Shown: positions 6,913 to 35,341 of the stretch, one piece after another
Position numbering within the stretch: the stretch's first letter is position 1
Layout: each line of letters starts with the position of its first letter
Assembly (NCBI RefSeq): GCF_964213995.1
Contig: NW_027590179.1
Span: 124,001-188,000, forward strand
DNA: 64,000 nt
Reading direction: 5' to 3'
DNA from: Mustelus asterias
Lineage: Eukaryota
Notes under the pieces: generated by a model
Told to the model about the DNA's origin: nothing
The model's input: the letters and a program-made list of their open reading frames with translations, nothing else
Database searches by the model: none
Position numbers and translations under genes: made by a program

Positions 6913-7471
6913 TAGGTTGATCTTTCCCCGAATTAAGCTGAAAAATGATGCAGATAGTTTGACGTCTGTCTAATGCACAAGTACTGAGTGCCCAGTGCAA
7001 GAGGATAATTGATAGATACCGTTTTAAATACACAGGGAAAAAGTAATCACCCAACTCAGAATTGAGATGCGGTTCGACTGGGAAAACAGAGATTTCAGTC
7101 AGTCAATATTATTAACCCAGCAACTTCAACATGTGACATCTCTGAGTCTGCCTTTGATATTTAATCACTTTTGAAAGATGTGGTCTGTCACACAGTTAAC
7201 TGATCTGGAGCATTTAAAATACAGATTGATGACCTTGTTCTCCTGAAAGACCTGCGGGTTTGTGTGAATGGGATCGGGGAATGATTGGACTTGATCTGAT
7301 AGTAATATGAGTAAAAATATCTCAAATTTACCAACAGTGACAATTATTGACCTCAATGAGGGAAAACACTCAGATGGGGCTATATTGTCACGTTCACTAT
7401 GGGTAAAATTTCTCTGATGTTTAACCCCATGTGTTGTCCTGACAATGAACCATTGATTATCGACCTGTGCC

Positions 7472-7510
7472 AGTTTTTGTATGAGGCCCGCGGGAGCCTC
7501 ATTCACTGTG
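7472..7510 (-). other. 23-RSS of V-A
   Basis: CACAGTG (7510-7504), 23 bp spacer, ACAAAAACT. Confidence 0.95.
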
Positions 7511-10193
7511 GGTCTCGGTGCACAGTAATACACGGCGCTGTCTGTCATCTTCAAATCTTTCATGGACAAGTGAAAAGTGGTTTGTTTCAGGTTGAGATTC
7601 CCACTGAAGTGTTCAAAGCCGGGAGCCGTATCGGTAAACCCACAACTAGCGGCTCTGAGCAGATACTGAGGAGCTCGGTGTGGATACTGGCGATACCAGA
7701 ACAGGTCATGCTGTGTAGCTGAACTCGATGCAGAGTAACTGCATCATATTGCTGAATCTTCACCCTCTGCTGCTTCAACAACTGGTTCTAACTGGGGCAC
7801 TGAGTCTCTGTTACTCATGTCATGGCCCAAAAGTTAAAATTCTAAATTGGGGCAAGACGAATTTTGATGGTATCAGGCAGGAACTTTCAAAAGTTAATTG
7901 GAGGAGTCTGTGGGAAGGCAAAGGGACGTCTGGTAAGTGGCAAGCTTTCAAAAGTGTGTTAATCAGGGTTCAGGGTAAGCACAGTCCTCTTAGAGTGAAG
8001 AGCAAGGCTGGTAGACGGAGGGAACCCTGGGATGACTCGGGATATTGAGGCCCTGGTCAAGAAGAAGAAAGGGGCACATGACATGCATAGGCACTGGGAT
8101 CAAGTGAATCCCTTGAAGAGTATAGGGGGTGTAGGAGTAGAGTTAAGAGAGAAATCAGGAGGGCAAAAAGGGGACACGAGATTGTTTTGGTAGATAAGGC
8201 AAAGGAGAATCCAAAGAGCTTCTACAAATACATAAAAGGCAATGGAGAGAGTAGGGCTTCTTAATGATCAGCATGGTCATCTACGTGCCGATCCACAGGG
8301 ATGGGTGAGATCCTAAATGAATATTTCTCATCAGTATTTAGTGTTGAGAAAAGCATGGATGTTAGTGAACTTGGGGAGATAAATAGTGATGTCTTGAGGA
8401 GTGTACATATTACAGAGAAAGAGATGCTGGAAGTCTTAAAGGGCATCAAGATAGATAAATCCCCGGGACTTGATGAAGTGTGTCCCAGGACATTGTGGGA
8501 GGCTCGGGAGGAAATTGTGGGTCCCCTAGCCGAGATATTTGAATCATCGATAGTCACGGGTGAGGTGCCTGAAGATTGGAGAGTGGCAAATGTTGTGCCT
8601 TTGTTTAAAAAGGGCTTCAGGGAAAAGCCTGGTGAGCCTCACATCTGTGGTGGGTAAGTTGTTGGAAAGTATTTTGAGAGACAGGACCTACAGGCATTAA
8701 GAGATGCAAGGACTGATTAGGGACAGTCAGCATGGCTTTGTGAGTGGAAAATCATGTCTCACAAATTTGATTGAGTTTTTTGAAGGGGTAACCAAGATGG
8801 TGGATGAGGGCAGTGCAGTTGGTGTTGTCTTCATGGACTTTAGCAAGGCCTTTGACAAGGTACCGCATGGTTGGTTGTTGCATAGGGTTAAATCTCATGG
8901 GATCCAGGGTGAGATATTTAAATTGATACAAAAGTGGCTTCTGGACAGAAGCCAGAGTGTGGTTGTAGAGGGTTGTCTTTAAAACTGGAGGCCTGTGACC
9001 AGCGGTATGCCTCAGGGATCAGTGCTGGGTCCACTGTTATTTGTCATGTATATTAATGATTTGGATGATAATATAGGTAGCATGGTTTGCAGATTACACC
9101 AAGATTGGTGGCATAGTGCACAGCGAAGAAAGTTATCTCCGATTGCAACGGGATCTTGATCAATTGGGCCAGTGAGCTGACGAATGGCAGATGGAGTTTA
9201 AGTTAGACAAATGCGAGGTGATGCATTTTGGTGGATTGAACCAGGGCAGGACTTACACAGTTAATGGGAGGACGTTGGGGAGAGTTACAGAACAAAGAGA
9301 TCTAAGGGTACATGTTCAGAGCTCCTTGAAAGTGGAGTCACAGGTGGACAGAGTGGTGAAAAAGGCATCGGCATGCTTGGTTTCATTGGTCAGAACATTG
9401 AATACAGGAGTTGGGATGTCTTGTTGAAGTTGGACAAGACATTGGTGAGGCCACACTTGGAATACTGTGTACAGTTCTGGTCACCCCATTGTAGAAAGGA
9501 TATTATTAAACTGGAAAGAGTGCAGAAAAGATTTACTAGGATGCTACCGGGATTTGATGGACTGAGTTATAAGGAGAGGCTGGATAGACTGGGACTTTTT
9601 TCTCTGGAGCGTAGGAGGCTGAGGGGCGATCTTATAGAGGTCTATAAAATAATGAGGGGCACAGATCAGCTGGATAGTCAATATATTTTCCCAAAGATAG
9701 GGAAGTCTAAAACCAGAGGGCATATGTTCAATGAGAGGGGAGAGATACAAAAGTTCCAGAGGGGCATTTTCTTCGCACAGCAGGTGGTGAGCATCTGGAA
9801 CAAGCTGCCAGAGGCAGTAGCAGTGGTGGGTACAATGTTGTTTTTTAAAAAGCATTTTGACAGTTATATGGGTAAGATGGGTATAGAGGGATATGGGCCA
9901 AATGCGGGCAATTGGGATTAGTTTAGTGGTTTAAACAAAAAGGGCGTCATGAACAAGTTGGGCCGAAGGGCCTGTTTCTATGCTGTAAACCTCTGTTACT
10001 CTGTGACTCTATGACTCTATCTCTGAAAATAAACAGCGGACACAAAGCGGATTAGGAGGAACAACAACGGAATAATTGCCTCGAGATGGAAATGGGGAAC
10101 TAATCTGGTGATTGCCGGATTTCACCCAAAGGTTCAAAATGACCGAGCTGTGATCAGGACAATAACCAGAGTCAGACAGAATTTCACCCCCAT
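7511..10193 (-). pseudogene. TCR alpha/delta-type V segment A (leader 10148-10193, V exon 7511-7820), split by CR1
   Basis: Leader MGVKFCLTLVIVLIT with donor GT>CT. V exon DSVPQLEP..AI*CSY..LFWYRQYPHRAPQYLL..DSAVYYCAPR has one stop. Confidence 0.9.
7821..10022 (+). mobile_element. 5'-truncated CR1 LINE inserted at the V-A splice acceptor
   Basis: RT motifs in ORFs 8301-9921, (GACTCTAT)n tail. Flanks rejoin to match the uninterrupted paralogue at 22711-22724. Confidence 0.95.
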
Positions 10194-10381
10194 GATTCCA
10201 GTTAGAGCTTCAGAAACAGAGACAGTGATCACTGACTGTACCAGAACTGCAATTGGAGAAGTTGAAACAGTCAGTGGAATGGTATGAGGTCGAACGTGAC
10301 TCCCTGTCTCCGCCCATTTTTACATCTTCAAACAGGCGCTTCCTCTCGAAGGAATGGTGACCTTGCATAAGTGATCAGAGA

Positions 10382-10395
10382 GCGCCCTCCCGTGG
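10382..10395 (-). promoter_or_regulatory. CTCF-like motif upstream of V-A leader
   Basis: CCACGGGAGGGCGC about 190 bp 5' of the ATG. Retained in the V-B paralogue. Confidence 0.45.
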
Positions 10396-10469
10396 ACAGC
10401 ACTGCCGCATATTGGAAACAGACACACACACGGCCACCTGCAAAGACTGACACATTTCGAGATATTAAA

Positions 10470-10685
10470 ATCATAGAATCCGTACAGTACAGAAGAATGC
10501 CATTCGGCCCAGCGAGTATGTACTGGCCACAACGCCACCCAGGCCCTATTCCCGTAACCCCATATATTTACCCCGCTAATCCCCCTGACACTTGGGTCAA
10601 TTTAGCATGGCTAATCAACCGAACCTGCACATCTTTGGATTGTGGGAGGAAACCGGAGCACCTGAGGAAACCCAGCAGACACGGG
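10470..10685 (-). mobile_element. HE1-type SINE, partial
   Basis: Reverse-complement V domain and tail. Shared with 23162-23370. Confidence 0.8.
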
Positions 10686-11319
10686 GAGAGCAGATACATA
10701 CACGGCCACGTGCAAAGGCTAACACATGTAAGGATATATAACCATATAGATATATGCCCAGGCACTGACATCAACGTCCCTCGCTATAAATACAGAATTA
10801 TTCTGTAGATTTGTGATATATATTAGTCTCAGCTGTTAACCATGATAATACATGAATAACCCCACCTCCGTGTTCACTGGAAGCGTCGTATACCGCACAG
10901 AATCAACAAAGTATAGACACAGGGACAAGTAAACACAGTGATCGATTCTCAAACCGATCGACTCAAACATAGACACACAGTCACTGAGGAAGATAAACAA
11001 TCAGATTAACACAGCCATAGACACACTAAAGAGAAGTGCGCCCATTGACAATGCCAAAAACGTACTAGTTCCAGAGTAAACTTCCTGAACTCGAATTCCC
11101 TGGGGTCGTGTCAGTGCGGCAATATCCCGTTAGATATTCATCGCGATGGAACTGTCCATTTTAACAACAGGAACAGCCAGAAATCTATTTCTTACCAACG
11201 GTGATCACTAATTGATGACTATAAGCAATTGACGACTATTGGAGAATAAGCAACAATGCTTATTTATTTTTATTTTTTTACAGTCAACCATATTCTGGAT
11301 GTGTCCGTGTCATGTTTAA

Positions 11320-11586
11320 AGTTTGTTTATTAGTGTCACAAGTGGGATTACATTCATACTGCAATTAAGTTACTGTAAAAATCCACTGGTCGCCACACTC
11401 CGGGAGAACTTTAGCATGGTAATGCACCGAACCAGTGCATCTTTTGGACTGTGGGAGAAAACCAGAGCACACAGAGGAAACCCACGCAGACACAGGAAGA
11501 ACATACAAACTGCACACAGACCCAAGCCAGGCATCGAACCCGGGTCCCTGGCGTGGTGAGGCAGCTATGTGCCACTGTGCCACCCC
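11320..11586 (-). mobile_element. V-SINE with alternative tail
   Basis: tRNA-like head at 11530-11586 plus V domain. Remnant shared at about 24200-24370. Confidence 0.75.
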
Positions 11587-12269
11587 GTGTGAGATCAGTG
11601 TATGCAAGACAGATTTCCCACCCATTCTCAATGTTATCGGATTAAATGTTCGGGACACAGGAGGACAACACAAGGAGACTGCTTTGGGTGCAGGTGATTC
11701 ATTCTCTTCTGTTATATTCCACATTCTGTGGAAAGTTGTGGAGTTACTTAGTTATATTATATATAATTCAGAAATAATGAGGAGATGCTTCATCCGATTA
11801 AACTCGTTTTGTAAATTCAATATGAAATCAATTGCATAAATAAATATATGTCTACATTGAAAGCTAAATTGGGAAGCTATATCCAATACTTCATGCCATT
11901 GGATCAAGGAAACGTTGTTACTTAAAGCAAACTGTATGGACACGGATTCCACAGAAACTCCTTCTTCAAATGGGGATTGAACAATGACTTGAAAGGGAGA
12001 AAAATCAGCTTCATGGAATGAGAGGAGGAAACTGAAATGAGAACAAAGAACAGTGCAGCACAGGAACAGGCCCTTCGGCCCACCAAGCCCACACCGATAC
12101 ATCAGTTGGGTAGCTCGTAATCAAATAATTGGCATAGGCATTGTGGGTCAAAGGGCCTCTTATTGTTGCCTGCCATTGTCAACCATTTTCAATCATTCTT
12201 GGATCAATATGTCTACAGCATTCACAATGAGTGTTGCAACATTTCAAGAGACTCCCATTGGGTGCTTGC

Positions 12270-12332
12270 AAGTGGTGATTGCATTCACCTCACACACGAA
12301 AGCTCCCCAGTTCAAAGCCATGCCGGAATGTT
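12270..12332 (+). pseudogene. tRNA-Val(CAC) remnant
   Basis: AGTGGTGATTGCATTCACCTCACACACGAAAGCTCCCCAGTTCAAAGCC in array-unit context. Confidence 0.6.
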
Positions 12333-12625
12333 ATTAGTATTTGTTCTTTAAGGATGAGGGAAGTTTACATGATTTAAATTTGTTACTGAACATTATCCGC
12401 AACTCAATATTAACGCCATATTATCTTTGCTCTGACCTCGGCCTCAAAATCTTACAACAAAATCTGAAATCTTGTATTTTTATGACGCAATGAAAGGAAA
12501 TAGAGGTCCCTTTTTGACACCGTGTTCATATCAGCAACTCGTTCAGTCCACAACAGAATTTAATGGCTTTATTGATGCAGACGAACAAAGTTAATCACCA
12601 TCTGAAACATATCTAAAAGTATAAA

Positions 12626-12776
12626 TGATGTGGAGATGCCGGCGTTGGGCTGGGGTCAACACAGTAAGGAATTTAACAACACCAGGTTAAAGTCCAACAG
12701 GTTTATTTGGTAGCTAGTGGCGTTTGCTACCAAATAAACCTGTTGGACTTTAACCTGATGTTGTTAGACTCCTAAC
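12626..12776 (-). mobile_element. Penelope-like terminus, fold-back, 8-bp TSD
   Basis: 41-bp inverted arms. AGTATAAA duplicated at 12618 and 12777. Same family as 21641. Confidence 0.75.
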
Positions 12777-13495
12777 AGTATAAAGACAGGCATACGTGAA
12801 ACTGTAACTGAACTAGAGGAAATAGCGCACATTGCACACCATCTTTTTAACATCGTTGTTCAGAGTAAAGAATTAGGGAAAGCCTCTCAGACAGATGAGG
12901 AAATCGAGAATCAGTGTGGATCTGCTGGACTTCCTGCAGATGAACGAGATTTAGGCGCCAGAATGTTTCACTCGCAGAGTAAAGAGGGATCAAGTATAAC
13001 TAACAGATAATTCTTAAATCTCTTCCCTTTAAAGATATCTGATTTTGTTTAAAAGCTGACTGTCTCAAATAAGCACCATGGGATGTGTATTACCCAGTGA
13101 CTCGATTTCTTTTGTTGGTCAGTCATGCTTGCAATTCAATGTTGTATATTTCAGAGATATTCAGTTCAAAATGAGGTGATATGTAATTAATAAAAATATA
13201 TTAATATTAAACGTTGAAAAGCAAACAAGCACTGGGTGGAGCTGGTTAAAATTATTCGAAGGAAGATGAGAATGATGCATTAATGATTGAGCAGAAATCA
13301 TTGCTCCTTAGATGTTTGCTGGACGACCACTTTTAAATGTTGAAGTTGAAGATAAGTTGAGAAATCAAGTTGAAAGAAATGTTTTTTGTCTTGTATTAAT
13401 TGACATGGGCTCTCAGTGTAACCATTAGAACCTGCAGCAACACAGTGGGGGTGAACATTGCGGTCAGGCCAATTGGTGGCGCTATGTTGTCAGTT

Positions 13496-13568
13496 GTTCC
13501 TGTAGTGTAGTGGTTATCACGTTCGCCTAACACGCGAAAGGTCCCCGGTTCGAAACCGGGCAGAAACA
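13496..13568 (+). tRNA. tRNA-Val(AAC)
   Basis: Matches canonical vertebrate Val-AAC in the D, anticodon and T arms. One acceptor-stem mismatch (C4:A69). Confidence 0.9.
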
Positions 13569-14327
13569 TTAATTTACTCATTCATTGTGAGAGTAGTTTT
13601 GCATGGTTTCAGTTTTTGCTGCACCTCTTCCGAATCTCGATGTTGCAGCCATATTATCTTTGCTCTAAACTCGGCCACAAATGCTCTCAGCAAAATCAGA
13701 AATGCTGTAGTTTAAGACGCAATGAGGAAATAAATGTGTGTATTTGGACACCGTGCGCATATCAGCAACTTGTTCAAACCACAAGAGAATTTAATGGTTT
13801 TATAAATGCAGACTAACATAGTTAATCACCATCTGAAACATGTCAAATAGTATTGTGTGCTCATAAAGACAGACACAAGTGAAACTGTAAATGAACTAGA
13901 GGAAATGGCAGACATTGTCCAGAAGCATCTTTTTGAAATTGTTCTTCATAATAAAGAAATAGGAAAAAGCACTCAGGCAGATGAAGAAATCGAGACTCAG
14001 TGTAGATCTGCTGGACTTTCCTATAGATGAACGGGATTTAAGCACCAGAATATTTCACACGCAGAATAAAGAGGGATCAAGTATAACTGACAGATCATTC
14101 TTAAATCTCTTCCCTTTAAAGATATCTGATTTTGTTTAAAAGCTGACTGTCTCAAATAAGCACCATGGGATGTGTATTACCCAGTGACTCAATTTCTTTT
14201 ATTGGTCAGTCATGTTTGCAATTCAATGTTTCATATTCCCGAGATATTCAATTCAGAATGAAGACGTATGTATTAAATACATGTATTAATATTTAATATC
14301 GAATAACGAAACAAATATTGAGTAACC

Positions 14328-15430
14328 AGCCAACGATTCAAGTCTGGATGACCCTTCATCAGAGCTAAGAGCAAAGAAAAGCAGAAAAGATTTAAATTAT
14401 GGGTGGAAGGGTGGAAGGGGGGTGCTGTAATTGGACAAAGGGAATGCAAATGAGGATAAAGATGGCTGAGAGAGATGCTAAAAATGTCCATTAAGCGATC
14501 AGAATAGCAGAGCAGAGGTAAAGGTGGTTAAGGCAGTTGCCCTGAAAGAGGAGTGGGGGCGGGGGGGGGGGGGGGGGGGGGGCGGGGGGGGGGGGGGGGG
14601 GCGGGGAGGAGGGGGGGGGCGGGGGGCGGTGGTGGGGGGTGGGGGGAGAGGCAAGAAGGAGAGCAGGAATGAAGAAATGGAAATGAGAAAGAAGTATGAT
14701 AAAAATGGGTAAATGAGATGAAGAGAAGAAACAGAATGAAATAAAATAAATGGAAAGGGGATAAAGGTGGCGGGGAGAGTTCATGCTCTGAAGTTGTTGA
14801 ACTCAATGTTTATTCCAGAAGGCTGTAAAGTGTCCAATTGGAAGATGAGGCACTGTTCCTCCAGTTTGCGTTGGGGTTCATTCAAACATTGCAAAAGGCC
14901 AAGGACGGACATGTGGACAGGAGAGCAGGGTGGGGTGTTGAAGTGACAAGAACTGGAAGTTCTGGGTCCTGCTTGCAGACGGACTGAAGGTGTTCAGCAA
15001 AGCGATCACCCAGTTTGTGTTTGGTCTCTCCAATGTAGGAGAGTAGACTTCATGGGGAGGAGCGAATGCAATAGACTAGACTGAAGGAGATGCATGTGAA
15101 TCGCTACTTCACCTGAAAGGGGTGTTCAGGACTTGGGATGGTGAGCAGGGAGCAGGTAAAGGGACAGGTGTTGCACCTTCCACCATTGCATGGGAAGATG
15201 CTGTGGGCAGGGGATGGGATGTTGGGTGGGATGGAGGCGTGGACCAGGCTGTCCCAGAGAGAACCTTCCTTGTGAAATGCTGTTGGGTGTGAGTGGTGAG
15301 GTGAAGATGTGTTGAGGAGTGGCTTCATGCTGGAATTGGCAGCAATGGCGGAGGATGATACTTTGAACACGGAGGCTGGTCTCTGGTCTGGTAAAAAGCA
15401 TGAACAAGGGGAGCCCTGTCCTCTTTCTAG
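14328..15430 (-). mobile_element. Penelope-like retroelement 3' part (GIY-YIG endonuclease remnant plus terminal hammerhead)
   Basis: IFPCNGGRCNTCPFT..FQVK followed by a degenerate YCIR..YIGETK. Terminal CTGATGA..GAAT motif at 14328-14366. Confidence 0.85.
14554..14647 (+). repeat. Poly-G / G-rich tract
   Basis: Long G runs inside the Penelope 3' region. Confidence 0.9.
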
Positions 15431-15996
15431 GAGGGATTATGTGAATGCCAAATCTTTCCTGATTTGTATTATTCTTATTGTGATGTAACCTATAGATTGT
15501 AGGACTCCTGTGAAACTGAATGCGAGTTGTTTTCTGCACAGATAGCTTTGAAATTTGCTGTTGAGTGCAATGAGGTTGGGTTCAACGCCTGCAATGTTCT
15601 GCGAACGCTCCACAATTTAAAAATAAGTCTTTAATTCCAAACTGCGGTCGCAAACAATGGGTATATTCCCATTACCATGACATTAATTGTATCGCAGCTT
15701 GATGTATTTCCATTCACTGGCTTCCAGCGCACCACCGACTGGTGGAGCAAGACCACAAAGTGGCATGATTGTCTTTTGGAAGAATGAGTCGAGTACGGTT
15801 CTGTGCTGGATCTGCCTGACAGATTGGATTCTGCAGTTGTTTTCTCCACTGCTGCTGGAAACAGTTAGGTGGTGGTTTCATCTGAGGTTAACTTGGTTTC
15901 CTCTGTGTGTGTGTGTTTGAGAAGCTGACAGCTCAGTTAACATCTTGCCATTAGGCAATCCTCAATCGTCTCGGGCTCATTCCTCCAGTGTAAGCA

Positions 15997-16035
15997 GGTT
16001 TTTGCACGAAAGTGGACCTTCTTTCTATCACTGTG
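15997..16035 (-). other. 23-RSS of V-C
   Basis: CACAGTG, 23 bp spacer, GCAAAAACC. Confidence 0.95.
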
Positions 16036-16497
16036 CGTCTGAACGCGCAGTAATAAACGGCAGCATCAGTCTGGCTCAGGTCCAATATATTTAAACTCAT
16101 GAATTTGTTCGAGGCCTGTAGATCCACATAGAACCGACTTTTAAAAACATCTGCGTTATCTTCATAACCATCAGGATCTTTCCGCAGAATAAAGACGGGC
16201 TGCGTGTCCGGAAGTTGTCGGTACCAGTACAGCCTATAGTCGCTCTCTGTGGTTTGATAGTCACAGGTCAAGGTCACGATCTCGCCTTCTCTCTTAACAT
16301 CTGATGAGAGCGACTGGGTGACAGAATCTCCATGACTCAGGTCTGAAAATAACAAAACAGAAAATGTTCAGACGGGCGAATCATGAAAGAGACGGTCTGG
16401 AACCAAGCTGGGAAATGTGAGAAACGGTGCAATGTATTTTTCACATAATTACTGTTAGGAATGGTCCCCACATTACCCACACACCGACCAGCCACAT
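16036..16497 (-). CDS. TCR alpha/delta-type V segment C: open V exon 16036-16342, candidate leader 16453-16497
   Basis: GDSVTQ..VTLTCDY..LYWYRQLP..TDAAVYYCAFR keeps both Cys and the Trp. Leader MWLVGVWVMWGPFLT. The donor appears one base out of phase. Confidence 0.85.
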
Positions 16498-17074
16498 TGT
16501 CGCTGTGCGCTCTGTAGAAGGGGAGCTGGGTGTTTGATTTCATCAAGTCTAATGTTTGCCCTCAATAATCAGCTTCCTGTTTCCGGATGTTCTCAGCTCC
16601 CTCCCTTCTGTCCCCAGTAATGCTGTGTGACACCCAAGGTGGTGAGATAGCAGACAGTAAAAAAAACGCACCGTGAGCTGGATGACAATCACTATCCTTA
16701 CAGAGAGAACTTGCAGATTTAACGATTGACTTGGGGAAGAATGTAGAAAAATGGGGTGTAGGAATATGGGAACAGCAGTAGGCCATTCTGCCCTTCGATT
16801 CTGTTTCGTCATTCAGTCAGATCAGGACTGATAAGCCTGAACACCACTTTCTGGCGCTATCTGCATCGCCCTTGATGAGATTTTGCTCCTTAAAGCTATT
16901 GATTGAACATACTCAACAATTGACATTCCACAAAGCCCGTTAATTTTCTTATTTTCTGTGACCCGGAAGCTAAGGAAGGCTAAATAGCTCTGCCATTTTA
17001 TTTTTTAAACGTCCATTAGCCTTATTATAAGGACAGTTTCAATCGTGAATCCAGTGAAAGTTTGTTCTGTGTGC

Positions 17075-17232
17075 GGGACATGGGTGCCACTGGTTGGCCA
17101 GCATTTATTGTCCATCACTAGTTGAGAATCAACCACATTGCAGTGGCTCTGGTGTCACATGTAGGCCAGACCAGGTAAGGAATGCAGTTTTTCTTCCCGA
17201 AATTACATTAGTGAACCAGATTCTTAATTGTA
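17075..17232 (-). mobile_element. Deu-domain (SacSINE1-like) SINE, interrupted by CR1 and continuing at 19018-19115
   Basis: CAACCACATTGCAGTGGCTCTGG..CACATGTAGGCCAGACCAGGTAAGG core. Confidence 0.65.
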
Positions 17233-19017
17233 CATAGAAGATAGAACATTACAGCGCAGTACAGGCCCTTTGGTCCTCGATGTTGCGCCGACCAGTGAAA
17301 CCAATCTAAAGCCCATCTAACCTACACTATTCCAATATCATCCATATGTTTATCCAATGACCATTTAAATGCCCTTAATGTTGGCGAGTCCCCTACTGCT
17401 GCAGGCAGGGCACTCCACGCCCTTACTACTCTCTGAGTGAAGAACCTACCTCTGACATCAGTCCTAAATCTATCACCCCTCAATTTAAAGCTATGTCCCC
17501 GCGTGCTAGCCAACACCATCCGAGGAAAAAGGCTCTCACTATCCACCCTATCTAATCCTCTGGTCATCTTGTATGCCTCTTAACCGTCTTCTCTCTAATG
17601 AAAACAACCTCAAGTCCCTCAGCCTTTCCTCATAAGACCTTTCCACCATACCAGGCAACATCCGAGTAAATCTCCTCTGCACCCTTTCCAATGCTTCCAC
17701 ATCCTTCCTATAATGCGGCGACCAGAACTGCATGCAATACTCCAAGTGTGGCCGCACCAGAGTTTTATACGGCTGCAACATGACCTCCTGGCTCCGAAAC
17801 TCAATCCCTCTACCAATAAAAGCTAACACTCCGTACGCCTTCTTAACAACACTATCAACCTGGGTGCCAACTTTCAGGGATCTATGCACATGGATACCGA
17901 GATCTCTCTGTTCATCCACACTACCAAGTATCTTACCATTAGCCCAGTACTCTGTAATCCTGTTACTCCTTCCAAAGTGAATCACCTCACACTTTTCCGC
18001 ATTGAACTCAATTTGCCACCTCTCAGCCCAGCACTGCAGCTTATCTATGTCCCTCTGTAACCTGCAACAACTTTCCGCACTGTCCACAACTCCACCGACT
18101 TTAGTGTCATCCGCAAATTTACTAACCCATCCTTCCAAGCCTTCATCCAAGTCATTAATAAAAATGACAAACAGCAGAGGCCCCAAAACAAATCCTTGCG
18201 GTACACCACTAGTAACTGAACTCCAAGGTGAACATTTCCTATCAACCACCACCCTCTGTCTTCTTACAGCGAGCCAATTCCTGATCCTAACCGCTAAATC
18301 ACCCTCAATCCCATGCCTCCATATCTTCTGCAATAGCTTACCGTGAGGAACCTTACCAAACGCTTTACTGAAATCCATATACGCCACATCAACTGCTTTA
18401 CCCGTATCCACCTCTTTGGTCACCTTCTCAAAGAACTCAATAAGGTTTGTGAGGCACGACCTACCCTTCAGAAAACCGTGTTGACTATCTCTAATCAAAT
18501 TATTCCTTTCTAGATGATTATAAATCCTATCTCTTCTAATCCTTTCCAAAACTTTGCCCACAACAGAAGTAAGGCTCACTGGTCTATAATTACCAAGGTT
18601 GTCTCTACTCCCCTTCTTGTACAAGCGGACAACGTTTGCTATCCTCCATTCTTCTGGCACTATTCCTGTAGACAATGACGACATAAAGATCAAAACCAAA
18701 GACTCTGCAATCTCCTCCCGAGCCTCCCAGAGAATCCTGGGATAAATCCCATCCGGCCCAGGGGACTTATCTATTTTCACACTTTCCAGAATTCCTAACA
18801 CCTCCTCCTTATGAACCTCAATCCCGTCTAGTCCAATAGCCTGTATCTCAGTATTCTCCTTGACAACACTGTCTTTTTCCTGCGTGAATACTGACGAAGA
18901 ATATTAAGTTAGCGCCTTTCCTATCTCTTCAGGCTCCACGCACAACTTCCTACTACTTGTCCTTGACTGGCCCTAATCTTACCCTAGTCATTCTTTTATT
19001 CCTGAAATACCTATAGA
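17233..19017 (-). mobile_element. CR1 LINE, 5'-truncated
   Basis: 417-aa RT ORF 17548-18801. TSD AATTGTA at 17226 and 19018. Confidence 0.95.
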
Positions 19018-19236
19018 AATTGTAGATTTATTTTTACTGAATTGGGTCTTCGCACTCTAGCTGAGCTTTTGGATTAATCGTCGAGCGATAATATCACCAG
19101 GACATCGTCTCCCCTGTAGTGAATATCAGCAAAACTGAAAATGTATGGAGGCACTACAGAGTGAATCATGCTGCATTTAAAGAAGTTCAATGTTATTACC
19201 ATTCTCTGCTCCGTTCACCCTGTGACTTTGAGGCAG

Positions 19237-19550
19237 TGTTTTGGTGCGGGGCTCCCTCTGGTTTCTGTCTCTGAGTCTGTCAGTCCGCAGTAATACACCG
19301 CGTGGCCAGACAATCGCAGCTCACGGATGGGGAAATTTCCATTGTTTTTCGACCGGTCAATAGATGCAGAAAATCAGGCTCCCATGTCCTCTGCAATGGA
19401 AATGTCTCCATAATTAGAATGTAGTTCAAGAAAATGGGAGCTTTCTCTCGGTCCTTGCGGTACAATTGAATGTAATATGCACCAACTGCTCAGCAGTTGA
19501 ACTTAATGGTCACCGAGTCTCCTTCAAACGTCAAGCTGAATTGTGGATTG
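19237..19550 (-). pseudogene. TCR-type V segment D, decayed, with degenerate 23-RSS
   Basis: FEGDSVTIKFNC*..IQLYRKDREKAPIFL..FSASIDRSKNNG..HAVYYCGL, then CTCAGAG-23-ACCAAAACA. 5' end replaced by a SINE tail. Confidence 0.75.
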
Positions 19551-19816
19551 TGGTCGGTGCATACTCCATGGGCCGAATGGCCTCCTTTTGCACTGTATAG
19601 TTTCTATGATTCGATGAAGTTTTGGGAACCGGAGTTCGAATTCTAACACGACAGATTAACTCAATTCAAGGGCAATTAGGGATGCCTGTAAATGAGTAAA
19701 GAAAATACTATCTGTGCAACTTTTCCTCACTTAAACGAATAGGTTTTGAGAAAGTTTGCACCCGATTTTGAAAGGTCGGACCAATATGTAAACATTGCTA
19801 TATCTTGCACGTGTGT

Positions 19817-19889
19817 GGGCCAGTGGCGCAATGAATAACGCATCTAGCTACGGATTAGAAGAGTCCAGATTCGACTCCTGGCTGACACA
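19817..19889 (+). pseudogene. tRNA-Arg(ACG) pseudogene
   Basis: GGGCCAGTGGCGCAATGAATAACGC..CTACGGA..GATTCGACTCCTGGC with multiple stem-breaking substitutions. Confidence 0.85.
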
Positions 19890-20299
19890 TGGGCACTTTT
19901 CAACAACAGTTCATTAACTCCACGTTAGTTTCGATGAACAAAACGTGTTTTCAGTAACTTTAAACAAATGTTGGCCAAATACAGTAAGCTTCGATGAAGA
20001 AAGTTTTCCTGGGTGATTGTTTTTTTAAAGTTGACTATTTTAAGAAAAGTTCCACTCAAAAACTTTCATCAATTACTTTTAAACTAGTTTCTTTAAATGA
20101 CGAATTCCCCTTAAATTGTGGTTGGTGCTGACTTGGTAGGCCGAATGGCCTCCTTCTACACTGCACGGGTTCTCTGGATTCTCTGGATTCATCGCAGTAA
20201 CCGGCTCGTGAGACCGCATCTGCAGCAGTGAAATCTGCAGAAATTTAGAAATATCGAACGTTAAGTTGATATTGTAACTAATAGCGTCAGGGAACGGAT

Positions 20300-20873
20300 C
20301 ACATTGTAAACCTCGATCAGGTCACCCTTCAACCTCCTTATCTTGTCAAAGGCTTCACTGAAGTCCATGTATATAACATCCACTGCCTTTCCCTCTTCTA
20401 CCATCTTAGTCAGTTCCTCGAAAATCGCAATGACGTTAGTGAGGCATGACCACCCCTTCACAAAACCACGCTGTCTATCACTAATAAGTCCATTTGTTTC
20501 CAAATGTGATAAACCCTGTCCCTCAGAATATTTTCTAATAATTTCCTGGATTATCCCTGCTGCCCTTCTTACAAGGGCTGCTGCCATTCTGGAACTATCC
20601 TTCAGTCCTCTGGAACTTCACCTGTAGCCAGTGAGGATACAAAGATTACTGTCAAGGCCCCAGCAAATTCGCCCTTGCCTCCCTCAGTTTTCTGCGATAG
20701 ATCCCATTAAGCCCTGGGGGCTTACCTACTTTAATGTTTTTTTAAGACGCCCAACACCTCCTCCTTTTCGATATCGAGATGACCCTGAATATCTACTCAT
20801 CCAACCCTTGGCTCCTCACCTATCAAGTCCCTCTCTTTTGATGAATACTGAGGCAAGGTATTCATTTAGTATT
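20300..20873 (-). mobile_element. CR1 fragments with internal deletions
   Basis: GFVKGWSCLTN..YMDFSEAFDK joined directly to RRLKGDLIEVY. Confidence 0.85.
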
Positions 20874-20874
20874 T

Positions 20875-21525
20875 GGGAGAAAGAGTCGAGAGCTTCAAGT
20901 TTGTAGGTGCCCAGATCACCAACAACCTGTCCTAGTCCCCCCACGCCGACACTATGGTTAAGAAAGCCCATTAACGCCTCTACTTTCTCAGAAGACGAAG
21001 GAAATTTGGCATGTCAGCTACTACTCTCACCAACCTTTACAGTTGGGCCATAGAAAGCATTCTTTCTCGTTGGATTATAGCTTGGTATGGCTCCTGCTCT
21101 GCCCACAGCCGCAAGGAACTAGAAAAGGTCGTGAATGTAGTCCAATCCATCACGCAAACCAGCCTCTCACCCATTGAGTCTGTCTACGCTTCCTGCTGCC
21201 TCGGCAAAGCAATCAACATAATTAAGGACCCCACAAACCGCGGACATTCTCTCTTCCACCTTCTTCTTTCGGAAGAAAGATACAAAAGTCTGAGTTCACG
21301 TACCAACCGACTCAAAAACAGCTTCTTCCCTGCTGCTGTCAGACTTTTGAATGGACTTACCTTGCATTAAGTTGATCTTTCTCTACACTCTAGCTATGAC
21401 TATAATCGTACATTCTGCACTCTCTCGTTTCCTTCTCTATGAATCGTATGTCTTGTCTGTATTGCGCGCAAGAAACAATACTTTCACTGTATGTTAATAC
21501 ATGTGACAATCATAAATCAAATCAC
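20875..21525 (+). mobile_element. Rex1/Babar-type LINE 3' end
   Basis: IESILS..IIAWYGSC..TNRLKNSFFPAAVRLLN, (AAATC)n-like tail. Confidence 0.8.
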
Positions 21526-21550
21526 AACATCTGACTTGGAGACAACGAAA

Positions 21551-21640
21551 GGGCTCGTCCACGATTTGAACCCAGGACCCCTTGCATGCTCATCAACTGA
21601 AATTCCCTAAGCGCGAATCAGACCCCTGCACCAACGAAAC
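21551..21640 (-). pseudogene. tRNA-Pro(AGG)-derived gene with 18-nt insert at position 37/38
   Basis: Two 36-nt halves align without gaps to vertebrate Pro-AGG. Insert at 21587-21604. Confidence 0.85.
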
Positions 21641-21800
21641 TGATGTGGAGATGCCGGCGTTGGACTGGGGTAAGCACAGTAAGAAGTCTCACAACACCAG
21701 GTTAAAGTCCAACAGGTTTATTTGGTAGCAAATACCATAAGCTTTCGGAGCACAGCTCCTTCGTCAGATGGAGTGGATATCTGTTCTCAAACAGTGCACA
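21641..21800 (-). mobile_element. Penelope-like terminal repeat
   Basis: Contains a hammerhead core followed by AATAAA on the minus strand. Same family as 12626. Confidence 0.75.
21735..21771 (-). ncRNA. Minimal type I hammerhead ribozyme
   Basis: CCAT-CTGACGA-A-GGAGC(TGT)GCTCC-GAA-AGCT-T-ATGG: intact core, perfect stems I and II, palindromic stem III. Confidence 0.75.
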
Positions 21801-22374
21801 GAAACTGCACATAAGCAAGCATTAAAATATAACTCATTTATCTTTCTCCAAAGCAGTTCTGACACCTCCAGTGAAAGACAAAATTGTTGAAAAAACTCAC
21901 CGCATCAGCATTTGTGGACTTAAAGCTCCAGCGAAATATCCGCTCAATATTGTTACCTCGACTGTCTGCAGCTGGGGGCTTTTGTTTATAAAGTGCACAC
22001 GTTACAGTCAATATTTTAACCCAGCAACTTCAACATGTGTCAACTCTGAGTCTGCCTTTGATATTTGATCACTTTTGAAAGGTGTGGTCTGTCACACAGT
22101 TAACTGCTCTGGAACAATTAAAGTACAGATTGATGACCTTGTTCACCTGGGAGATCTGCGGGTTTGTGTGAATGGAATCGGGGATCGATTGGACTGATCT
22201 GATAGTAATATGAGTAAAAATATGTCAAATTTCTCAACAGTGACAATCATTAACCTCAGTGAGGGAAAACGCTCAGACGGGGCTGTATTGTCACGTTCAC
22301 TATGTTTAAATTTTATCTGATTTTTAACCCCATGTGTTGTCCTGACAATGAATCATTGATTATCGACCTGTGCC

Positions 22375-22413
22375 AGATTTTGTATGAGGTCCGCGGGAGC
22401 CTCATTCACTGTG
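22375..22413 (-). other. 23-RSS of V-B
   Basis: CACAGTG, 23 bp spacer, ACAAAATCT. Confidence 0.9.
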
Positions 22414-22890
22414 ACTCTCAGTGCACAGTAATACACGGCGCTGTCTGTCACCTTCAAATCTTGCATGGGCAAGTGAAAAGTGCTTTGTTTCAGGTTGAGA
22501 TTCCCGCTGAAGTGTTCAAAACCTGGAGCCGTATCGGTAAATTAGCGGCTCTGAGCAGTTAATGAGGAGTTCGGTGTGTATACTGGCGATACCAGAACAG
22601 GTAATGTTGTATAGTTGAACTCGGTACCGAGTAACTGCCGGGTATTGCTGAATCTTCACCCTCTGCTGCTTCAACTCCTGGTTCTGACTGGGACACTGAG
22701 TTACCGTTACTCATGTCTGAAAATAGGCAACAGACACGCAGCGGGTTAGAAGGAGTAACAACAACGGGATAATCGTCTCGAGATGGAAATGGGGAATGAA
22801 TATGGTGACTGGCGGATTTCACGCAGAAGTTCAAAATGACAGACCTGTAATCAGGACAATAACCAGAGTGAGACAGAGTTTCACCCCCAT
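22414..22890 (-). pseudogene. TCR-type V segment B, paralogue of A (leader 22845-22890, V exon 22414-22716)
   Basis: Leader MGVKLCLTLVIVLIT with phase-1 GT. First Cys>Gly, stop at 22559-22561, CDR2 frameshift. Ends DSAVYYCALR. Confidence 0.9.
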
Positions 22891-23644
22891 GGTTCGAGTT
22901 TGAACACCAGGAACAGAGCGACTGATCACTGTCTGCATCAGATCTGTAATTGGCGAAGTTGAAACAGTCAGGGGGATGTTATGAGATCGAAGGTGACTCC
23001 ATCTCTCCGCCCATTTTTACATCTTCAAACAGACCCCTCCTTTCGAAGGGAATCGTGATCTTTCATAAGTGATCAGAGACCGCCCTCCCGTGGACAGCAC
23101 AGCCGCATATTGGGAACAGGTACACACACGGCAACCTGCAAAGACTGACACATCTGGAGACCATAGAATCATAGAACCCCTACAGTACAGAAGGAGACCA
23201 TTCGGCCCAGCGAATCTGTACCGACCACAATTCCACCGAGGCCCTATTCCCGTAACCGCACACACAATCTCCCTGACACTAGGGGTCAATTTAGCATGGC
23301 CAATCCACCTAATCCGCACATCTTTGGTCTGTTGGAGGAAACCACAGCACCCGAGGTATCCCAGCAGACATGGGAGAACAGATACACACACGGTCACGTG
23401 GAAAGACCAACACGAATAAGGATATATAACCATATAGATATATGCCCAGGCAGTGACATCAATTCTAACGTCCCTCTTTATAACTCCAGAATTATTCTGC
23501 AGATTTCTGACAACTATTAGTTTGCGTTGCTAACCATGATAATGCATGAATACTTCCACCTCCGTGTTCACTGGAAGCCTCGGATACTGCACAGAATCAA
23601 CACAGAGACAAGTAAACTAAGTGATAGATTCCCAAACCAATTGA

Positions 23645-23858
23645 GTCAAACATAGAGTCATAGAGGTTTACAGCATGGAAACAGGCCCTTCGGCCAACTT
23701 GTCCATGCCGCCCTTTTTTTGAACCACTAAGATAATACCAATTGCCTGCATTTGGCCCATATCTCTCCCTACCCATCGTGCCCATGTAACTGTCTAAATG
23801 CTTTTTAAAATATAAAATTGTACCCGCCTCTACTACTCCCTCTGGCAGTGTGTTCCAC
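23645..23858 (-). mobile_element. CR1 3' end
   Basis: Reverse complement of the tail type seen at 9800-10020. Absent from the paralogous block. Confidence 0.85.
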
Positions 23859-25059
23859 TAGACACACGGACAATCACTAAGAAAGATAACCAAGCACATT
23901 AGCACAGCCATTGACACACAAAATAGAAATGAACTCATTGGCAACGTAAAAAGCGTGCTAGCTCCAGAGTAAACTTCCTGAACTGGAATTCCCTGGTGTG
24001 GTGTAAGTGCGGCAATATCGTGTTAGATATTCATTGCGATGGAACACGACATTTCAACAACAGGAGCAGCCGGAAATCTATTTCTCATCAATGGTGATCA
24101 TTGATTGACGACTCGATGTGGACCGTTTTGCAGAATAAGCAATAATGGATGTATTTATTTTTACCGCCAAACATATCCTGATGTGTCCGTGTCCAAAATT
24201 TATTTACTCGTGTCACAACCATGCTTACATTAATACTGCAAGTTACTGTGAAAATCCCCTCGTCGCCAAATACCGCCGCCTGTTTGTGTACACTAAGGAG
24301 GAATTTTAATTGAACCCAGGTCCCTAGCGTTGTGAAACAGCAGTGCTAACCACTGTGCCACTGTGTTGCCGTATGTGAAGTCCGTATGAGTAAGACAGAT
24401 TCCCCATCCATTCTCGAGGTTCTCGGATTGGATGTTCGGGACACAGGAGGACAACACAAGAAGACTGCTTCAGGTGTAGGTGATTCATTCTCGTCGGTTA
24501 TATTCCACACTCTGTGGAAGGTTGTGGTGTAAATGTAGTTATATTAGATGTAATTCAGAAATAATGAGGAGATGCTTCATCAGATTTAAATTCGTTTTGT
24601 AAAATCGATATGAAATCAATTGCATAAATAAATATATGTTTATATTGAAAACTATATCGGGAAGCTAAATCCAATATTTACTGCCACTGGGTAAGGGAAA
24701 GGTTGTTAAAGCAAATTGTACACGGAGTCTGCAGAAACTCCTTCTTCAAATGGGGATTTTGCAATGACTTAAAAGGGAGAAAAATCAGCTTCATGGAATA
24801 AGAGGAGGAAATTGAAATTGGAACAAAGAACAGTTCAGCACAGGAACAGGCCCATCGACCCACCAATCCCGCAACGTCATATCGATTGTTTAGCTCCTCA
24901 TAAAATAATTCGCATAGATCTGATGGATTGATGAGCCTCTCGTCGTTCTGTGCGATTGTCAACCATTTTCAATCATTCTTAGACTAATGTGTCTACAACA
25001 TTCCCAATGAATGTTGCAACATTTCAAGACAGCGCCATTGGGCTACAGAGCAGCTGACA

Positions 25060-25132
25060 GTTTCCGTGGTGTAGTGCTGATTGCATTTGCCTCACGCGCG
25101 CAAGGGCCCACGTTCGAAATCGAGCAGAAGCA
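25060..25132 (+). pseudogene. tRNA-Val(CAC) pseudogene
   Basis: 73 nt, colinear with Val, many substitutions. Confidence 0.8.
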
Positions 25133-25224
25133 TTAATGAAATTTGTTCATTAAGGTTGAGGGAAGTCTGTATAATTTCAGATTGTAGCTGAACATTATCC
25201 AAAACTCGAGGTTACAGCCATGTT

Positions 25225-25552
25225 AGCATGGTAGCACAATGGTTAGCACTGCTGCTTCACAGCTCCAGGGTTCCGGGTTCGATTCCCGGCTCGGACCACT
25301 GTCTGTGTGGAGTTTGTACATTCTCCTCGTGTCTGCGTGGGTTTCCTCCGGGTGCTCCGGTTTCCTCCCACAGTCCAAAGATGTGCGGGTTAGGTTGATT
25401 GGCCAGGTTAAAAATTGCCCCTTAGAGTCCTGTGATGCGTAGGTTAGTGGGATTAGCGGGTAAATATGTGGGGGTAGGGCCTGGGTGGGATTGTGGTCGG
25501 TGCAGACTCGATGGGCCGAATGGCCTCCTTCTGCACTGTAGGGTTTCTATGA
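25225..25552 (+). mobile_element. HE1-type V-SINE, near full length
   Basis: A/B boxes, V domain, TCTATGA tail. Confidence 0.9.
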
Positions 25553-26982
25553 TTATATTTGCGCTCACCTCTGCCTCAAAAGCTTTCAGCAAAATCAGAA
25601 ATCTTGTATTTTCATGAGAGGAAATACATGTTCCTATTTTAAAACCGTGCACATATTAGCAATATTTTCAGTCCACACCAGAATTTAATAGGTTTATAAA
25701 TGCAGACTAACATAATTCATCACCAACTGAAACATGTCTAATAGTATTGTGTGCTCAAAAATACAGATATAAGTGATACTGTAACTGAACGAGAGGAAAT
25801 GGAACACATTTTCCAGAAGCATCTTTTTAAAATTGTTCTTCATAATAACGAAATAGGGAAAACCTCTCAGACAGAAGAGGAAATTGAGAATCAAAGCGGA
25901 CCGTCTGGATCTCCTATAGATGAACGAGATTTAGGCGCCAGAATGTTTCTCACACAGAATAAAGAGGGATGAAGTATAACTAACAGATCATTCTTGAATC
26001 TCTTCCCTTTAAATATATTTGAATTGGTTTAAAAGCTGATCATGGTCAAACTCAAAAAAGCACCATGGGATGTGTATTACCCGTGACTCGATTTATTTTG
26101 TTGGTCAATAATGTTTGCAATTCAATGCTGTATATTTCAGACATATTCAATCCGCAATGAAGACATCTGTGTTAATTAAATGCGTTGATGTTAAATGTTG
26201 ATTACCGAACAAATACTGGATATAACTGTTTGAAGTTAATCGATCGTATATGAGAATGATGCATCAATGATTGAGCGGAAATCATTGCTCCCTTACATAT
26301 TTGTCCGATGAACGCTTTTAAATTTTGAAATTCGAGACAAGTTGAGACATCACGTTGAAAGTAACGGTTATCTGCTTGCACTGAGGTACATGGACTCTCA
26401 TTCTAACCATTCGAATCTGCAGCAATAGAGCGGACTTGAACAATGCAGTCAGACCGATTGTATATTCCAGAGATATTAAATTCAGAATTTGGACATATAT
26501 ATTAAATAACTGTATTGATTTTAAAAATTGAATGAAGATCCAAGGTGGATTGGGCATGCTAAATTACCCCTTGGTTAGATTGAATAGCCATGGGAAAGGA
26601 GTAGCGTTGTGGGGAAAACGCTGGAAATGGCCTGGTTATGATACTCTGGCGTTGCTGCTAATTCGTTGGGCCGATTGGCATTTTCGGCACTGATTCTATG
26701 ATTGTCTGAAACAAATACTGAGTATAATTGATTGAAGTTAGTCGCAGGAAGATAAGAATGAAGCATTAATGATTGAGCACAAATCAATGCTTTCTTAGAC
26801 ATTTGCCGGAGGAATTCTTTTTAATTTTGAAGAACAAGATGAGTTGAGATATCAGGTTGAAAGTAAGGGATGTGCTCTTGTATTAAGTGACATGGGCCCT
26901 CAGTCATACCATTCAAACCTGCAGCAACATAGTGGAGTTAAACATTGTAGTCAGGCCCATTGAGGCCCCAATGATATCACTT

Positions 26983-27055
26983 GTTTCTGCAGTCGAGGGA
27001 TTATCCCGCTCGCCTAAAACACGAAAAGTCCCCGGTCCGAAACAGGGAAGCAGCA
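26983..27055 (+). pseudogene. tRNA-Val pseudogene (anticodon reads AAA)
   Basis: 73 nt, colinear. A and B boxes damaged. Confidence 0.75.
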
Positions 27056-28239
27056 TTCGTTAAGCTTTCTCATGTAAGATGAGGGAAATCCTGTATGATT
27101 TCAGTTCGTTGCTGAACATTATCCGAATCTCGATATTACAGCAATATTAACTTTGCTCTGACCTCAACCTCAAATAGTTTCTGTGAATAAGAAATGCTGA
27201 TTTTCTTTTGACGCACTGACAGGAAAGAAACGTCTCTATTTTGACAACATGCACATAGTATCATCTTGTTCAGTGTACAACAGAATTTAATGGGTTTATA
27301 GGTGCAAACTAAAATAGCGAATCACCATCTGAAAAATGTCTAATAGGAGTGTGTGCTCAAAAAGACAGACACAAGTGATACTCGAAGTGAACGAGAGGAA
27401 ATGGCGCACATTTCCCAGAAGAATCTTCTTTTTAAAATCATGCTTCATAACATGGAAATCGGATAAAAAACACTCAGACAAATGAGGAAATGGAGACTCA
27501 GTGCGGATCAACTAGACTTTCCTATAGGTGGCCGGAATTTATGCGCCTGAGTGTTTCACATTTATAATAAAAAAGGCTCAAGTATACCTAACAGATATTT
27601 CTTCAATCACTTCCATTTAATTATAGTTGACTTTGTTTAAAAGCTGACGATGGCCAATCTCAAACAAACACCATGGGATCTGTATTACCCGGTGACTCGA
27701 CTCTTTTCGTTGGGCAGTTATGTTTGCAATTCAGTGATATTCAATTTCAGAGATATTCAATTCATAATGAAGACATCTGAGTTCAACAATGTATTGGTAT
27801 TAAATATTGAAACAGATACTGAGTACAATTGTACAATGAGCTTTGACAAAATGTCATCTGGATTCCAAACGTCAGCTCTTTTCTCTCCTTACAGATGCTA
27901 CCAGACCTTGTGAGATTTTCCAGCATTTTCTCCTTTGGTTTCAGATTCCATCATTCGCAGTAATTTGCTTTTATTAATGAGCACAATTGGTTGAGATTAT
28001 TCGAAGGAAGATGAAAATAATGCACTAATGAATGAGTAGAATTCAATGTTGCTTTGATATTTGCAAAACGCTTGCTTTCAAATTTTGAAGTTCAAGATAA
28101 GTTGAGCAATCATATTGACATTAACGGTTATCTTCCTGAAACAAGGGACATGGCCTCTCAGTCGAACCATTTGAAACTGCAGCAACACAACGCAGTTGAA
28201 CATTGCAGAGAGGCGGATTTGCTGTCATTGCTGTCACCT

Positions 28240-28312
28240 GTTTCTGTAGTGTAGTGGTTATCACGTTCACCTCACACGCGAAAGTTTCCCAGTTCAAAAC
28301 CAGGCAGAAATA
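28240..28312 (+). pseudogene. tRNA-Val(CAC), probable pseudogene
   Basis: A and B boxes largely retained, but anticodon-stem and T-stem mismatches. Confidence 0.8.
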
Positions 28313-28360
28313 TTCATTAAGTTTTCTAATTTAGGGTGAGGAAATCTGTATGATTTCAGT

Positions 28361-35337: not shown

Positions 35338-35341
35338 GACA

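What the first reader, a model, noticed from the sequence alone, without database searches (positions are those of the whole stretch)
7100..26460. V segment and tRNA-Val unit duplicated together as one ~4 kb cassette
Seen: 7100-13480 (less the 2.2 kb CR1) is colinear with 22006-26460: RSS, V, leader, promoter, two SINE remnants, a CR1 tail, then a Val(CAC) pseudo-tRNA unit leading into the array. Copy-specific insertions (7821, 12626, 23645, 25225) post-date the duplication. Inference: unequal crossover in the tRNA array carries V genes along, giving a mechanism for V birth and death.
Basis: partly seen in the sequence, partly recalled or inferred. Interest (0 to 1): 0.7.

Follow-up and report, generated by a model that had tools for sequence, protein, structure and literature searches.

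The report
Dead TCR-V cassette riding IgM duplications
In a shark immune-gene region, a broken T-cell-receptor gene piece and its neighbouring valine-tRNA repeats were copied together dozens of times after the gene had already died, likely as passengers on much larger duplications that often carry an antibody (IgM) gene, so this block is not a source of new working receptor genes.

Summary
The duplication is real: 7100-13474 and 22005-26460 align over about 4 kb at 78-90%. The proposed mechanism is not supported.

Both window V segments are TCR-alpha/delta-type pseudogenes. The V-spacer-Val block recurs across one 20-Mb contig and many smaller contigs, in about half of this V family, in three clades whose V and Val-unit histories agree.

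None of 69 cassette-type V copies is intact, against 27 of 38 copies without the cassette. All 7 clade-A copies share one CR1 insertion and all 45 clade-B copies one 7-bp deletion, so amplification followed death.

No copy has a Val unit within the 2-6 kb read on the RSS side, and the left breakpoints lie outside tRNA units. The copied units are far larger than 4 kb: 22 of 44 clade-B copies sit 55-83 kb from an Ig constant exon in fixed orientation, and two read through share a 75-kb block with a whole IgM minicluster.

Earlier scan notes saw V-tRNA co-amplification elsewhere in this genome. Verdict: pseudogene passenger on segmental duplications.

The parts
7100..13474 (.). Copy A of the V-spacer-Val block (clade A)
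7472..7510 (-). 23-bp-spacer RSS of V1
7511..7820 (-). V1 exon, TCR alpha/delta type, pseudogene: in-frame stop, splice acceptor displaced by CR1
   Evidence: family type
7821..10021 (+). CR1-type LINE fragment inserted at the V1 intron/exon junction; shared by 7 of 7 clade-A copies
10148..10193 (-). V1 leader exon, splice donor lost
10194..12250 (.). Promoter region and spacer with two SINE remnants (about 10466-10689 and 11330-11590) and a LINE tail (about 12040-12180)
12258..12330 (+). Decayed tRNA-Val(CAC)-like gene, copy A
   Evidence: not called by ARAGORN
12623..12781 (.). Short repeat insertion, clade-A marker; same element as 21641-21804
13495..13569 (+). tRNA-Val(AAC), second Val gene of copy A; its unit runs to about 14320
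15430..15442 (.). Non-homologous junction (15436) inside a LINE, joining the A block to the V2-V3-B block
16036..16342 (-). V2, a different TCR alpha/delta V with open exon and RSS; not duplicated in the window
19290..19550 (-). V3, broken V remnant; not duplicated in the window
19816..19890 (+). tRNA-Arg(ACG)
21551..22004 (-). Clade-B left flank: tRNA-like remnant (Pro-like by my reading; ARAGORN calls its homologues Lys with intron) and its 5' flank, joined to the V block at 22005
22005..26460 (.). Copy B of the block (clade B)
22375..22413 (-). 23-bp-spacer RSS of V4
22414..22716 (-). V4 exon, pseudogene: stop, 7-bp deletion shared by 45 of 45 clade-B copies, first cysteine lost
22845..22890 (-). 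V4 leader exon, donor intact
23651..23857 (-). LINE-tail insertion in a clade-B subset
25060..32513 (+). tRNA-Val array of copy B: Val-like genes at 25060, 26982, 28239, 30260, 31139 in units of about 1.2 kb, mostly decayed
25226..25553 (+). Young SINE, private to this copy, 96% identical to 31944-32271

Best explanation
The block is a dead TCR-alpha/delta V segment fixed next to a tRNA-Val array, and it was likely multiplied as a passenger on large segmental duplications of the shark antigen-receptor region, the largest clade riding at one end of a duplicated unit of at least 75 kb that holds an IgM minicluster. Shown: three clades; shared disabling lesions in A and B that predate their spread; homology between sisters running well past the 4-kb block; a fixed distance and orientation to IgM for half of clade B. 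Inferred history: one ancestral V-spacer-Val arrangement split into A, B and C at 9-21% divergence; each died; later duplications with variable, mostly non-tRNA breakpoints scattered it in both orientations; ectopic crossovers in the V or promoter homology made mosaics; unequal crossover within the arrays changed only the Val-unit number; and the useless V exon was often deleted. The window's A and B are old paralogues lying side by side in a mosaic, not the two products of one array crossover.
For: 0 of 69 cassette-type V intact versus 27 of 38 free (copies are related, so this is a handful of independent deaths, not 69). CR1 at the acceptor in 7 of 7 A; 7-bp deletion in 45 of 45 B. Sister copies share flanks beyond the block: the window and C356 differ by under 1% from 4.5 kb left of the window to about 19,400; C106 and C90 99.4% over 33.6 kb; C166 and C91 colinear over 75.5 kb at 87-97% through VH-D-D-JH-Cmu1-4, the last exon 97% identical to a houndshark IgM. 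22 of 44 B copies have an Ig C1 exon 55-83 kb away on the promoter side and opposite strand; random placement gives mean 0.9, maximum 6 in 2000. 15 of 49 IgM-tail motif sites have a B copy 70-83 kb upstream. 28 of 33 spacer-anchored loci lack the V exon (one, L055, is cut by its contig end). Identity switches at about 22,000 on the V side, and L128 pairs a B-type V with a C-type spacer and unit.
Against: The window's own B copy leaves the IgM block at about 30.0-30.7 kb, and no IgM exon was found in 104 kb read. The IgM link is clade-B only: A 1 of 7, and that one (C110) is a different, non-colinear cluster; C 0 of 19. The window's homology to C166, C91 and C123 fades inside the Val array in 3 of 3 comparisons, so the array may act as a one-sided hinge. 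Only 2 of the 22 B-IgM links were read through. Some near-identical copies may be assembly duplicates. The C1 list was the top 150 of 793 candidates.
Confidence: 0.78

Rival explanations
1. One reading: unequal crossover between tRNA-Val units duplicates the V between them and so gives V birth and death.
For: V and Val unit co-duplicated. Unit number varies. In the window, V2-V3-V4 does lie between co-oriented Val units of A and B, so the substrate exists here.
Against: No Val unit within the 2-6 kb read on the RSS side of any of 107 copies. Farther arrays found at C166 and C118 are inverted. Left junctions are non-homologous and outside units. No tandem repeat of a V-bearing block was found: the five same-strand spacer pairs under 25 kb are the window itself, three 16.7-kb pairs whose second member has no V exon, and a 22-kb tandem with no V exon. 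No intact V in the cassette clades.
Confidence: 0.06
2. The Val array is an active core: tRNA genes and their repeats promote breaks and ectopic crossovers, so the array seeds the duplications and swaps downstream flanks, dragging the dead V along.
For: Right-hand homology ends inside the array in 3 of 3 window comparisons. The spacer-array half survives without V in about half of its copies. tRNA genes are enriched about threefold at yeast breakpoints (PMC2675101, passages).
Against: Other right ends lie outside arrays: the C91 partial duplicate ends 9 kb past the array; the window leaves its clade-A sisters in a LINE at 15436. The candidate hinge product, an A-type V upstream of IgM at C110, proved non-colinear. 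tRNA density is high here, so some coincidence is expected; I ran no enrichment test.
Confidence: 0.12
3. The copy number is mostly assembly redundancy from uncollapsed haplotypes, and the true family is small.
For: C356 matches the window at over 99% for about 24 kb; C549 has a 22,014-bp repeat at 100% over the 10 kb compared; most copies lie on contigs under 3 Mb.
Against: 99 of 107 V regions are distinct; mean within-clade divergence is 3-8%; 12 V-motif hits lie on the single 20-Mb contig C71; the window's two copies differ by 10-20%.
Confidence: 0.04

Closest known systems
Elasmobranch antigen receptor complex, AgRC (Flajnik et al. 2025, PMC12227049; read parts 1-2 of 8 and a term search)
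   Same: TCR alpha/delta-type V exons lying between IgH miniclusters on one chromosome; here the cassette contigs carry many Ig C1 exons and IgM tails.
   Different: The paper's main text has no occurrence of tRNA, pseudogene or orphon. It does not describe the duplicated unit or dead V co-amplified with IgM. Its supplements were not read.
Shark IgM miniloci (PMC2435157, passages)
   Same: VH-D1-D2-JH-Cmu clusters, 15-200 per genome, at least 120 kb apart in nurse shark; the cluster at C166 has this anatomy.
   Different: What is copied along with a minilocus was not described in the passages seen; here it includes at least 57 kb of upstream DNA with a dead TCR V and tRNA-Val units.
Primate core duplicons such as LCR16a and GOLGA cores (recalled, no call)
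   Same: One ancestral core shared by many mosaic segmental duplications with variable flanks and both orientations.
   Different: Those cores carry transcribed, fast-evolving genes; this one carries a dead V and mostly decayed tRNA units, and a driving role is not shown.
Elasmobranch tRNA gene clusters (bioRxiv 10.1101/2025.06.08.657570, passages and section 6)
   Same: Sharks have unusually many tRNA loci in biased clusters.
   Different: That preprint links the clusters to histone genes; immunoglobulin and T cell receptor do not occur in its main text. Its supplements were not seen.

Membership tests
TCR alpha/delta V gene family (sequence family) | Split leader, V exon with both cysteines and the tryptophan, 3' RSS with 23-bp spacer, best single-domain matches to TCR alpha/delta | tested here: met
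   Intact member P0003; best single-stretch PDB hits are TCR alpha chains; RSS. Alpha versus delta use was not resolved.
Functional TCR V segment (the window's two copies) | Open leader and exon, intact splice sites | tested here: not met
   V1: stop, lost donor, CR1 at acceptor. V4: stop, 7-bp deletion.
Tandem duplicate made by unequal crossover between array units | Both ends of the duplicated block lie in co-oriented units | tested here: not met
   Left end 7100/22005 is a non-homologous join about 370 bp beyond the RSS; no unit on the RSS side.
Tandem duplicate made by unequal crossover between array units | Adjacent copies are each other's closest relatives and the DNA between them repeats | tested here: not met
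   A and B fall in separate clades; V2, V3 and tRNA-Arg between them are not repeated in the window.
Segmental duplication (over 1 kb, over 90% identity; definition recalled) | Long high-identity blocks containing non-repeat sequence at several loci | tested here: met
Core duplicon | Shared core inside mosaics with variable flanks | tested here: met
Core duplicon | Core enriched at breakpoints and carrying an expressed, selected gene | tested here: inconclusive
   Breakpoints mixed; V dead; tRNA expression not tested.
Elasmobranch AgRC | IgH miniclusters on the same contigs as TCR alpha/delta V exons | tested here: met
Elasmobranch AgRC | Linkage to TCR alpha/delta constant genes and PSMB5 | not tested
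   A Pfam PF09291 search found no match, which is uninformative for shark; PSMB5 was not searched.

The most novel reading that the evidence does not exclude
The V-spacer-tRNA-Val block is a core duplicon that anchors one end of the unit by which this shark multiplies IgM miniclusters, with the Val array acting as the hinge that swaps downstream flanks. Within clade B, 11 copies have regained a stop-free frame through three deletions (1, 7 and 4 bases) while keeping leader, splice sites and RSS, and could be rearranged as a new, tryptophan-less V type.
Probability: 0.1. Interest if true: 0.62.

Novelty: new member of a known kind. Interest (0 to 1): 0.3.

Why it matters
It shows what is physically copied when shark IgM miniclusters multiply: in this genome at least 75 kb, including dead TCR V and tRNA units. 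That gives a plain explanation for part of the published mixing of TCR V exons among IgH clusters, and supplies neutral markers (shared lesions and insertions) for ordering IgM cluster duplications. It also warns that V counts in such assemblies are inflated: 80 of 107 read members of this family are broken. It does not give a new mechanism of V gene birth.

Tried and rejected

My first sample (top 40 of 201 V hits) made the link look rare, because young free copies filled the list. The motif census corrected this to about half.

One search's lesion calls had indexing errors and were redone. One search passed 11 copies as clean; alignment showed they lack the conserved tryptophan strand, and they are counted as not intact. 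One search mislabelled L077 as unlinked because its spacer lay in the next stretch (fixed).

Dropped or unread rows: L089 fell out of the 107 because an insertion splits its V; it is linked and broken. Six listed V-motif hits (C401, C558, C786, C850, C900, C1069) and 9 unlisted ones were not read.

The hinge test at C110 was negative. The idea that two C91 copies 101 kb apart form a full tandem IgM unit was rejected: only 26.5 kb is shared. PF09291 found no TCR alpha constant exon. One IgM-tail motif search found nothing and was redone.

No RNA holder was listed for a frame-restored copy, which says nothing on expression. Presence of the block in other sharks and its read depth remain untested.

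Ten literature searches listed no paper on tRNA arrays co-duplicated with shark TCR V or IgM. The library lacks most subscription papers, and one review I sought was not held.
Full report
Setting. The window is G000:C147:124001-188000 in a 3.68-Gb genome. It holds six V-like segments on the minus strand, tRNA genes, a zinc-finger array and LINEs. The genome is a shark's: an IgM exon on a related contig is 97% identical to a houndshark IgM heavy chain. V2 and an intact relative of V1/V4 match TCR alpha/delta best among single-domain hits.

Observation. The left end is sharp at 7100/22005. The right end is not a boundary: a Val unit is locally rearranged at 26460 and unit homology resumes at 26709. 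Both V segments are dead. V1 has a stop, a lost donor and a LINE at its acceptor; V4 has a stop, a 7-bp deletion and no first cysteine.

Census. An exact V-family motif has 109 hits (100 listed) and a spacer motif 88. The listed hits lie on 67 contigs: C71 (20 Mb) and higher-numbered ones, all under 3 Mb where lengths were returned, in both orientations. By motif alone, 39 of 100 V have the spacer within 8 kb upstream, and 39 of 87 spacers have a V. Reading the loci showed 14 further links missed by exact matching, so 53 of the 94 listed hits that I read are linked; 6 were not read. The reverse also holds: 28 of 33 spacer-anchored loci have lost the V exon and keep at most leader or promoter remnants, often between two Val arrays.

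Gene status. I scored 107 V copies from fetched loci, a set chosen by similarity and motif and so not an unbiased sample. Of 55 linked copies, 44 have plain lesions. The other 11 have three deletions summing to 12 bases; these reopen the frame but replace the conserved tryptophan strand with out-of-frame residues. All 14 copies with only the first spacer segment are broken. Of 38 free copies, 27 look intact: 6 with ATG, and 21 with CTG plus an in-frame ATG at codon 5. All 7 clade-A copies carry the same LINE at the acceptor and all 45 clade-B copies the same 7-bp deletion, so these clades spread after the gene died. The copies are relatives, so the contrast rests on a few independent deaths.

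Trees. Among 50 of 51 linked copies with all parts, distances for V, promoter, spacer and first Val unit correlate (rho 0.71-0.83). Clades A (7), B (30) and C (13) are each one side of a starred branch on the V tree; on the spacer and unit trees one copy, L128, switches clade. The window's A and B are not sisters. The trees are unrooted quick IQ-TREE runs.

Breakpoints. No copy has a Val unit within the 2-6 kb read on the RSS side. The A-type left flank is shared with clade C and with an intact free V (L007), so the join at 22005 is a clade-B novelty. The join at 15436 cuts a LINE. Identity between the window and C356 falls from under 3% difference to 8-18% at about 22,000, on the V side. On the right, the window's homology to C166, C91 and C123 fades inside the Val array, whereas a partial duplicate on C91 ends 9 kb past it. 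Of five same-strand spacer pairs under 25 kb apart, none but the window has two V exons. The array therefore changes in unit number and may hinge one side, but it does not bracket the V.

The larger unit. A C1-set search (top 150 of 793 candidates) put near-identical Ig constant exons on the same contigs. 22 of 44 clade-B copies have one 55-83 kb away on the promoter side and opposite strand; random placement on the same contigs gives a mean of 0.9 and a maximum of 6 in 2000 runs. Clade A gives 1 of 7, clade C 0 of 19, free copies 0 of 24. Reading C166 and C91 through shows a 75.5-kb colinear block at 87-97% that starts at the clade-B left flank and contains leader-VH-D-D-JH-Cmu1-4 with a secretory tail. 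15 of 49 IgM-tail motif sites have a B copy 70-83 kb upstream. The one clade-A hit is a different cluster. The window's own B copy leaves this block near 30.0-30.7 kb, and no IgM exon appears in 104 kb read. Clade C sisters share over 33 kb, and clade A copies run into zinc-finger arrays.

Mechanism. Shown: co-duplication, death before spread in A and B, long shared flanks, and the IgM link for half of B. Inferred: spread by segmental duplication with variable breakpoints, mosaics from ectopic crossover in V or promoter homology, array crossover that alters unit number only, and repeated loss of the V exon. Not tested: selection on tRNA dosage, expression, read depth, age across species.

Known work. 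TCR-type V exons between IgH miniclusters are published (PMC12227049, parts 1-2 of 8 read; no occurrence of tRNA in the main text). IgM miniloci at least 120 kb apart are described in nurse shark (PMC2435157, passages). Abundant clustered tRNA loci in sharks are reported (bioRxiv 10.1101/2025.06.08.657570, passages and section 6). Families of near-identical germline alpha/delta V are noted in nurse shark (PMC5931798, passages). tRNA genes mark breakpoints in yeast (PMC2675101, passages). Ten searches listed no paper on this co-duplication; supplements were not read and could bear on that. Earlier notes of this scan, consulted after my reading was formed, report V segments co-amplified with tRNA blocks and repeated IgM/TCR units elsewhere in this genome; I did not test their claim of 19 TCR-delta constant genes.

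Verdict. Real feature, ordinary class: a pseudogene-tRNA block carried on segmental duplications, with a useful new detail about the size and content of the IgM duplication unit. Interest 0.3.

Noticed in passing
L081, L083, L086, L087, L093, L095, L097, L101, L103, L104, L108 (V exon): Eleven clade-B copies have deletions of 1, 7 and 4 bases that give a stop-free frame with leader, splice sites and RSS intact but no conserved tryptophan strand. Chance frame restoration is plausible.
   Followed up: partly
L014-L027, L031-L036, L140: A young clade of 21 near-identical intact V on small contigs starts its leader with CTG but has an in-frame ATG at codon 5. It is the largest intact group and has no Val unit.
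   Followed up: partly
G000:C549:212110-244123 (L068, L161, L162, L067): A 22,014-bp period repeat, 100% identical over the 10 kb compared, of a V-less promoter-spacer block between Val arrays; a very recent tandem duplication or an assembly error.
   Followed up: partly
window 1-19400 versus C356 (L076, L001, L077): Over 99% identity for about 24 kb, then a step to 8-18% difference at 22,000; a recent duplication, a conversion tract or an uncollapsed haplotype.
   Followed up: partly
window about 41970-42940, minus strand: An open frame of about 320 residues that reads like a rhodopsin-class GPCR; family not tested.
   Followed up: no
window 376-1477 and C147 to the left (L074, L075): C2H2 zinc-finger arrays beside the V block; clade-A copies elsewhere also run into such arrays.
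   Followed up: no
window 55430-55790 and 57860-58200: Two more broken V segments (V5, V6); homologues of both follow clade-C cassettes on C106 and C90.
   Followed up: partly
window 35337-37627 and 47825-49477: Young LINE copies 98-99% identical; the second has a short internal repeat of its tail.
   Followed up: no
L007 and L008: Head-to-head pairs of this V family about 7 kb apart; in L007 both are intact, in L008 one has a 10-bp deletion.
   Followed up: no
L141, about 1.6 kb past the window end: ARAGORN calls a tRNA with anticodon TCA (SeC), in line with the reported excess of such loci in sharks.
   Followed up: no
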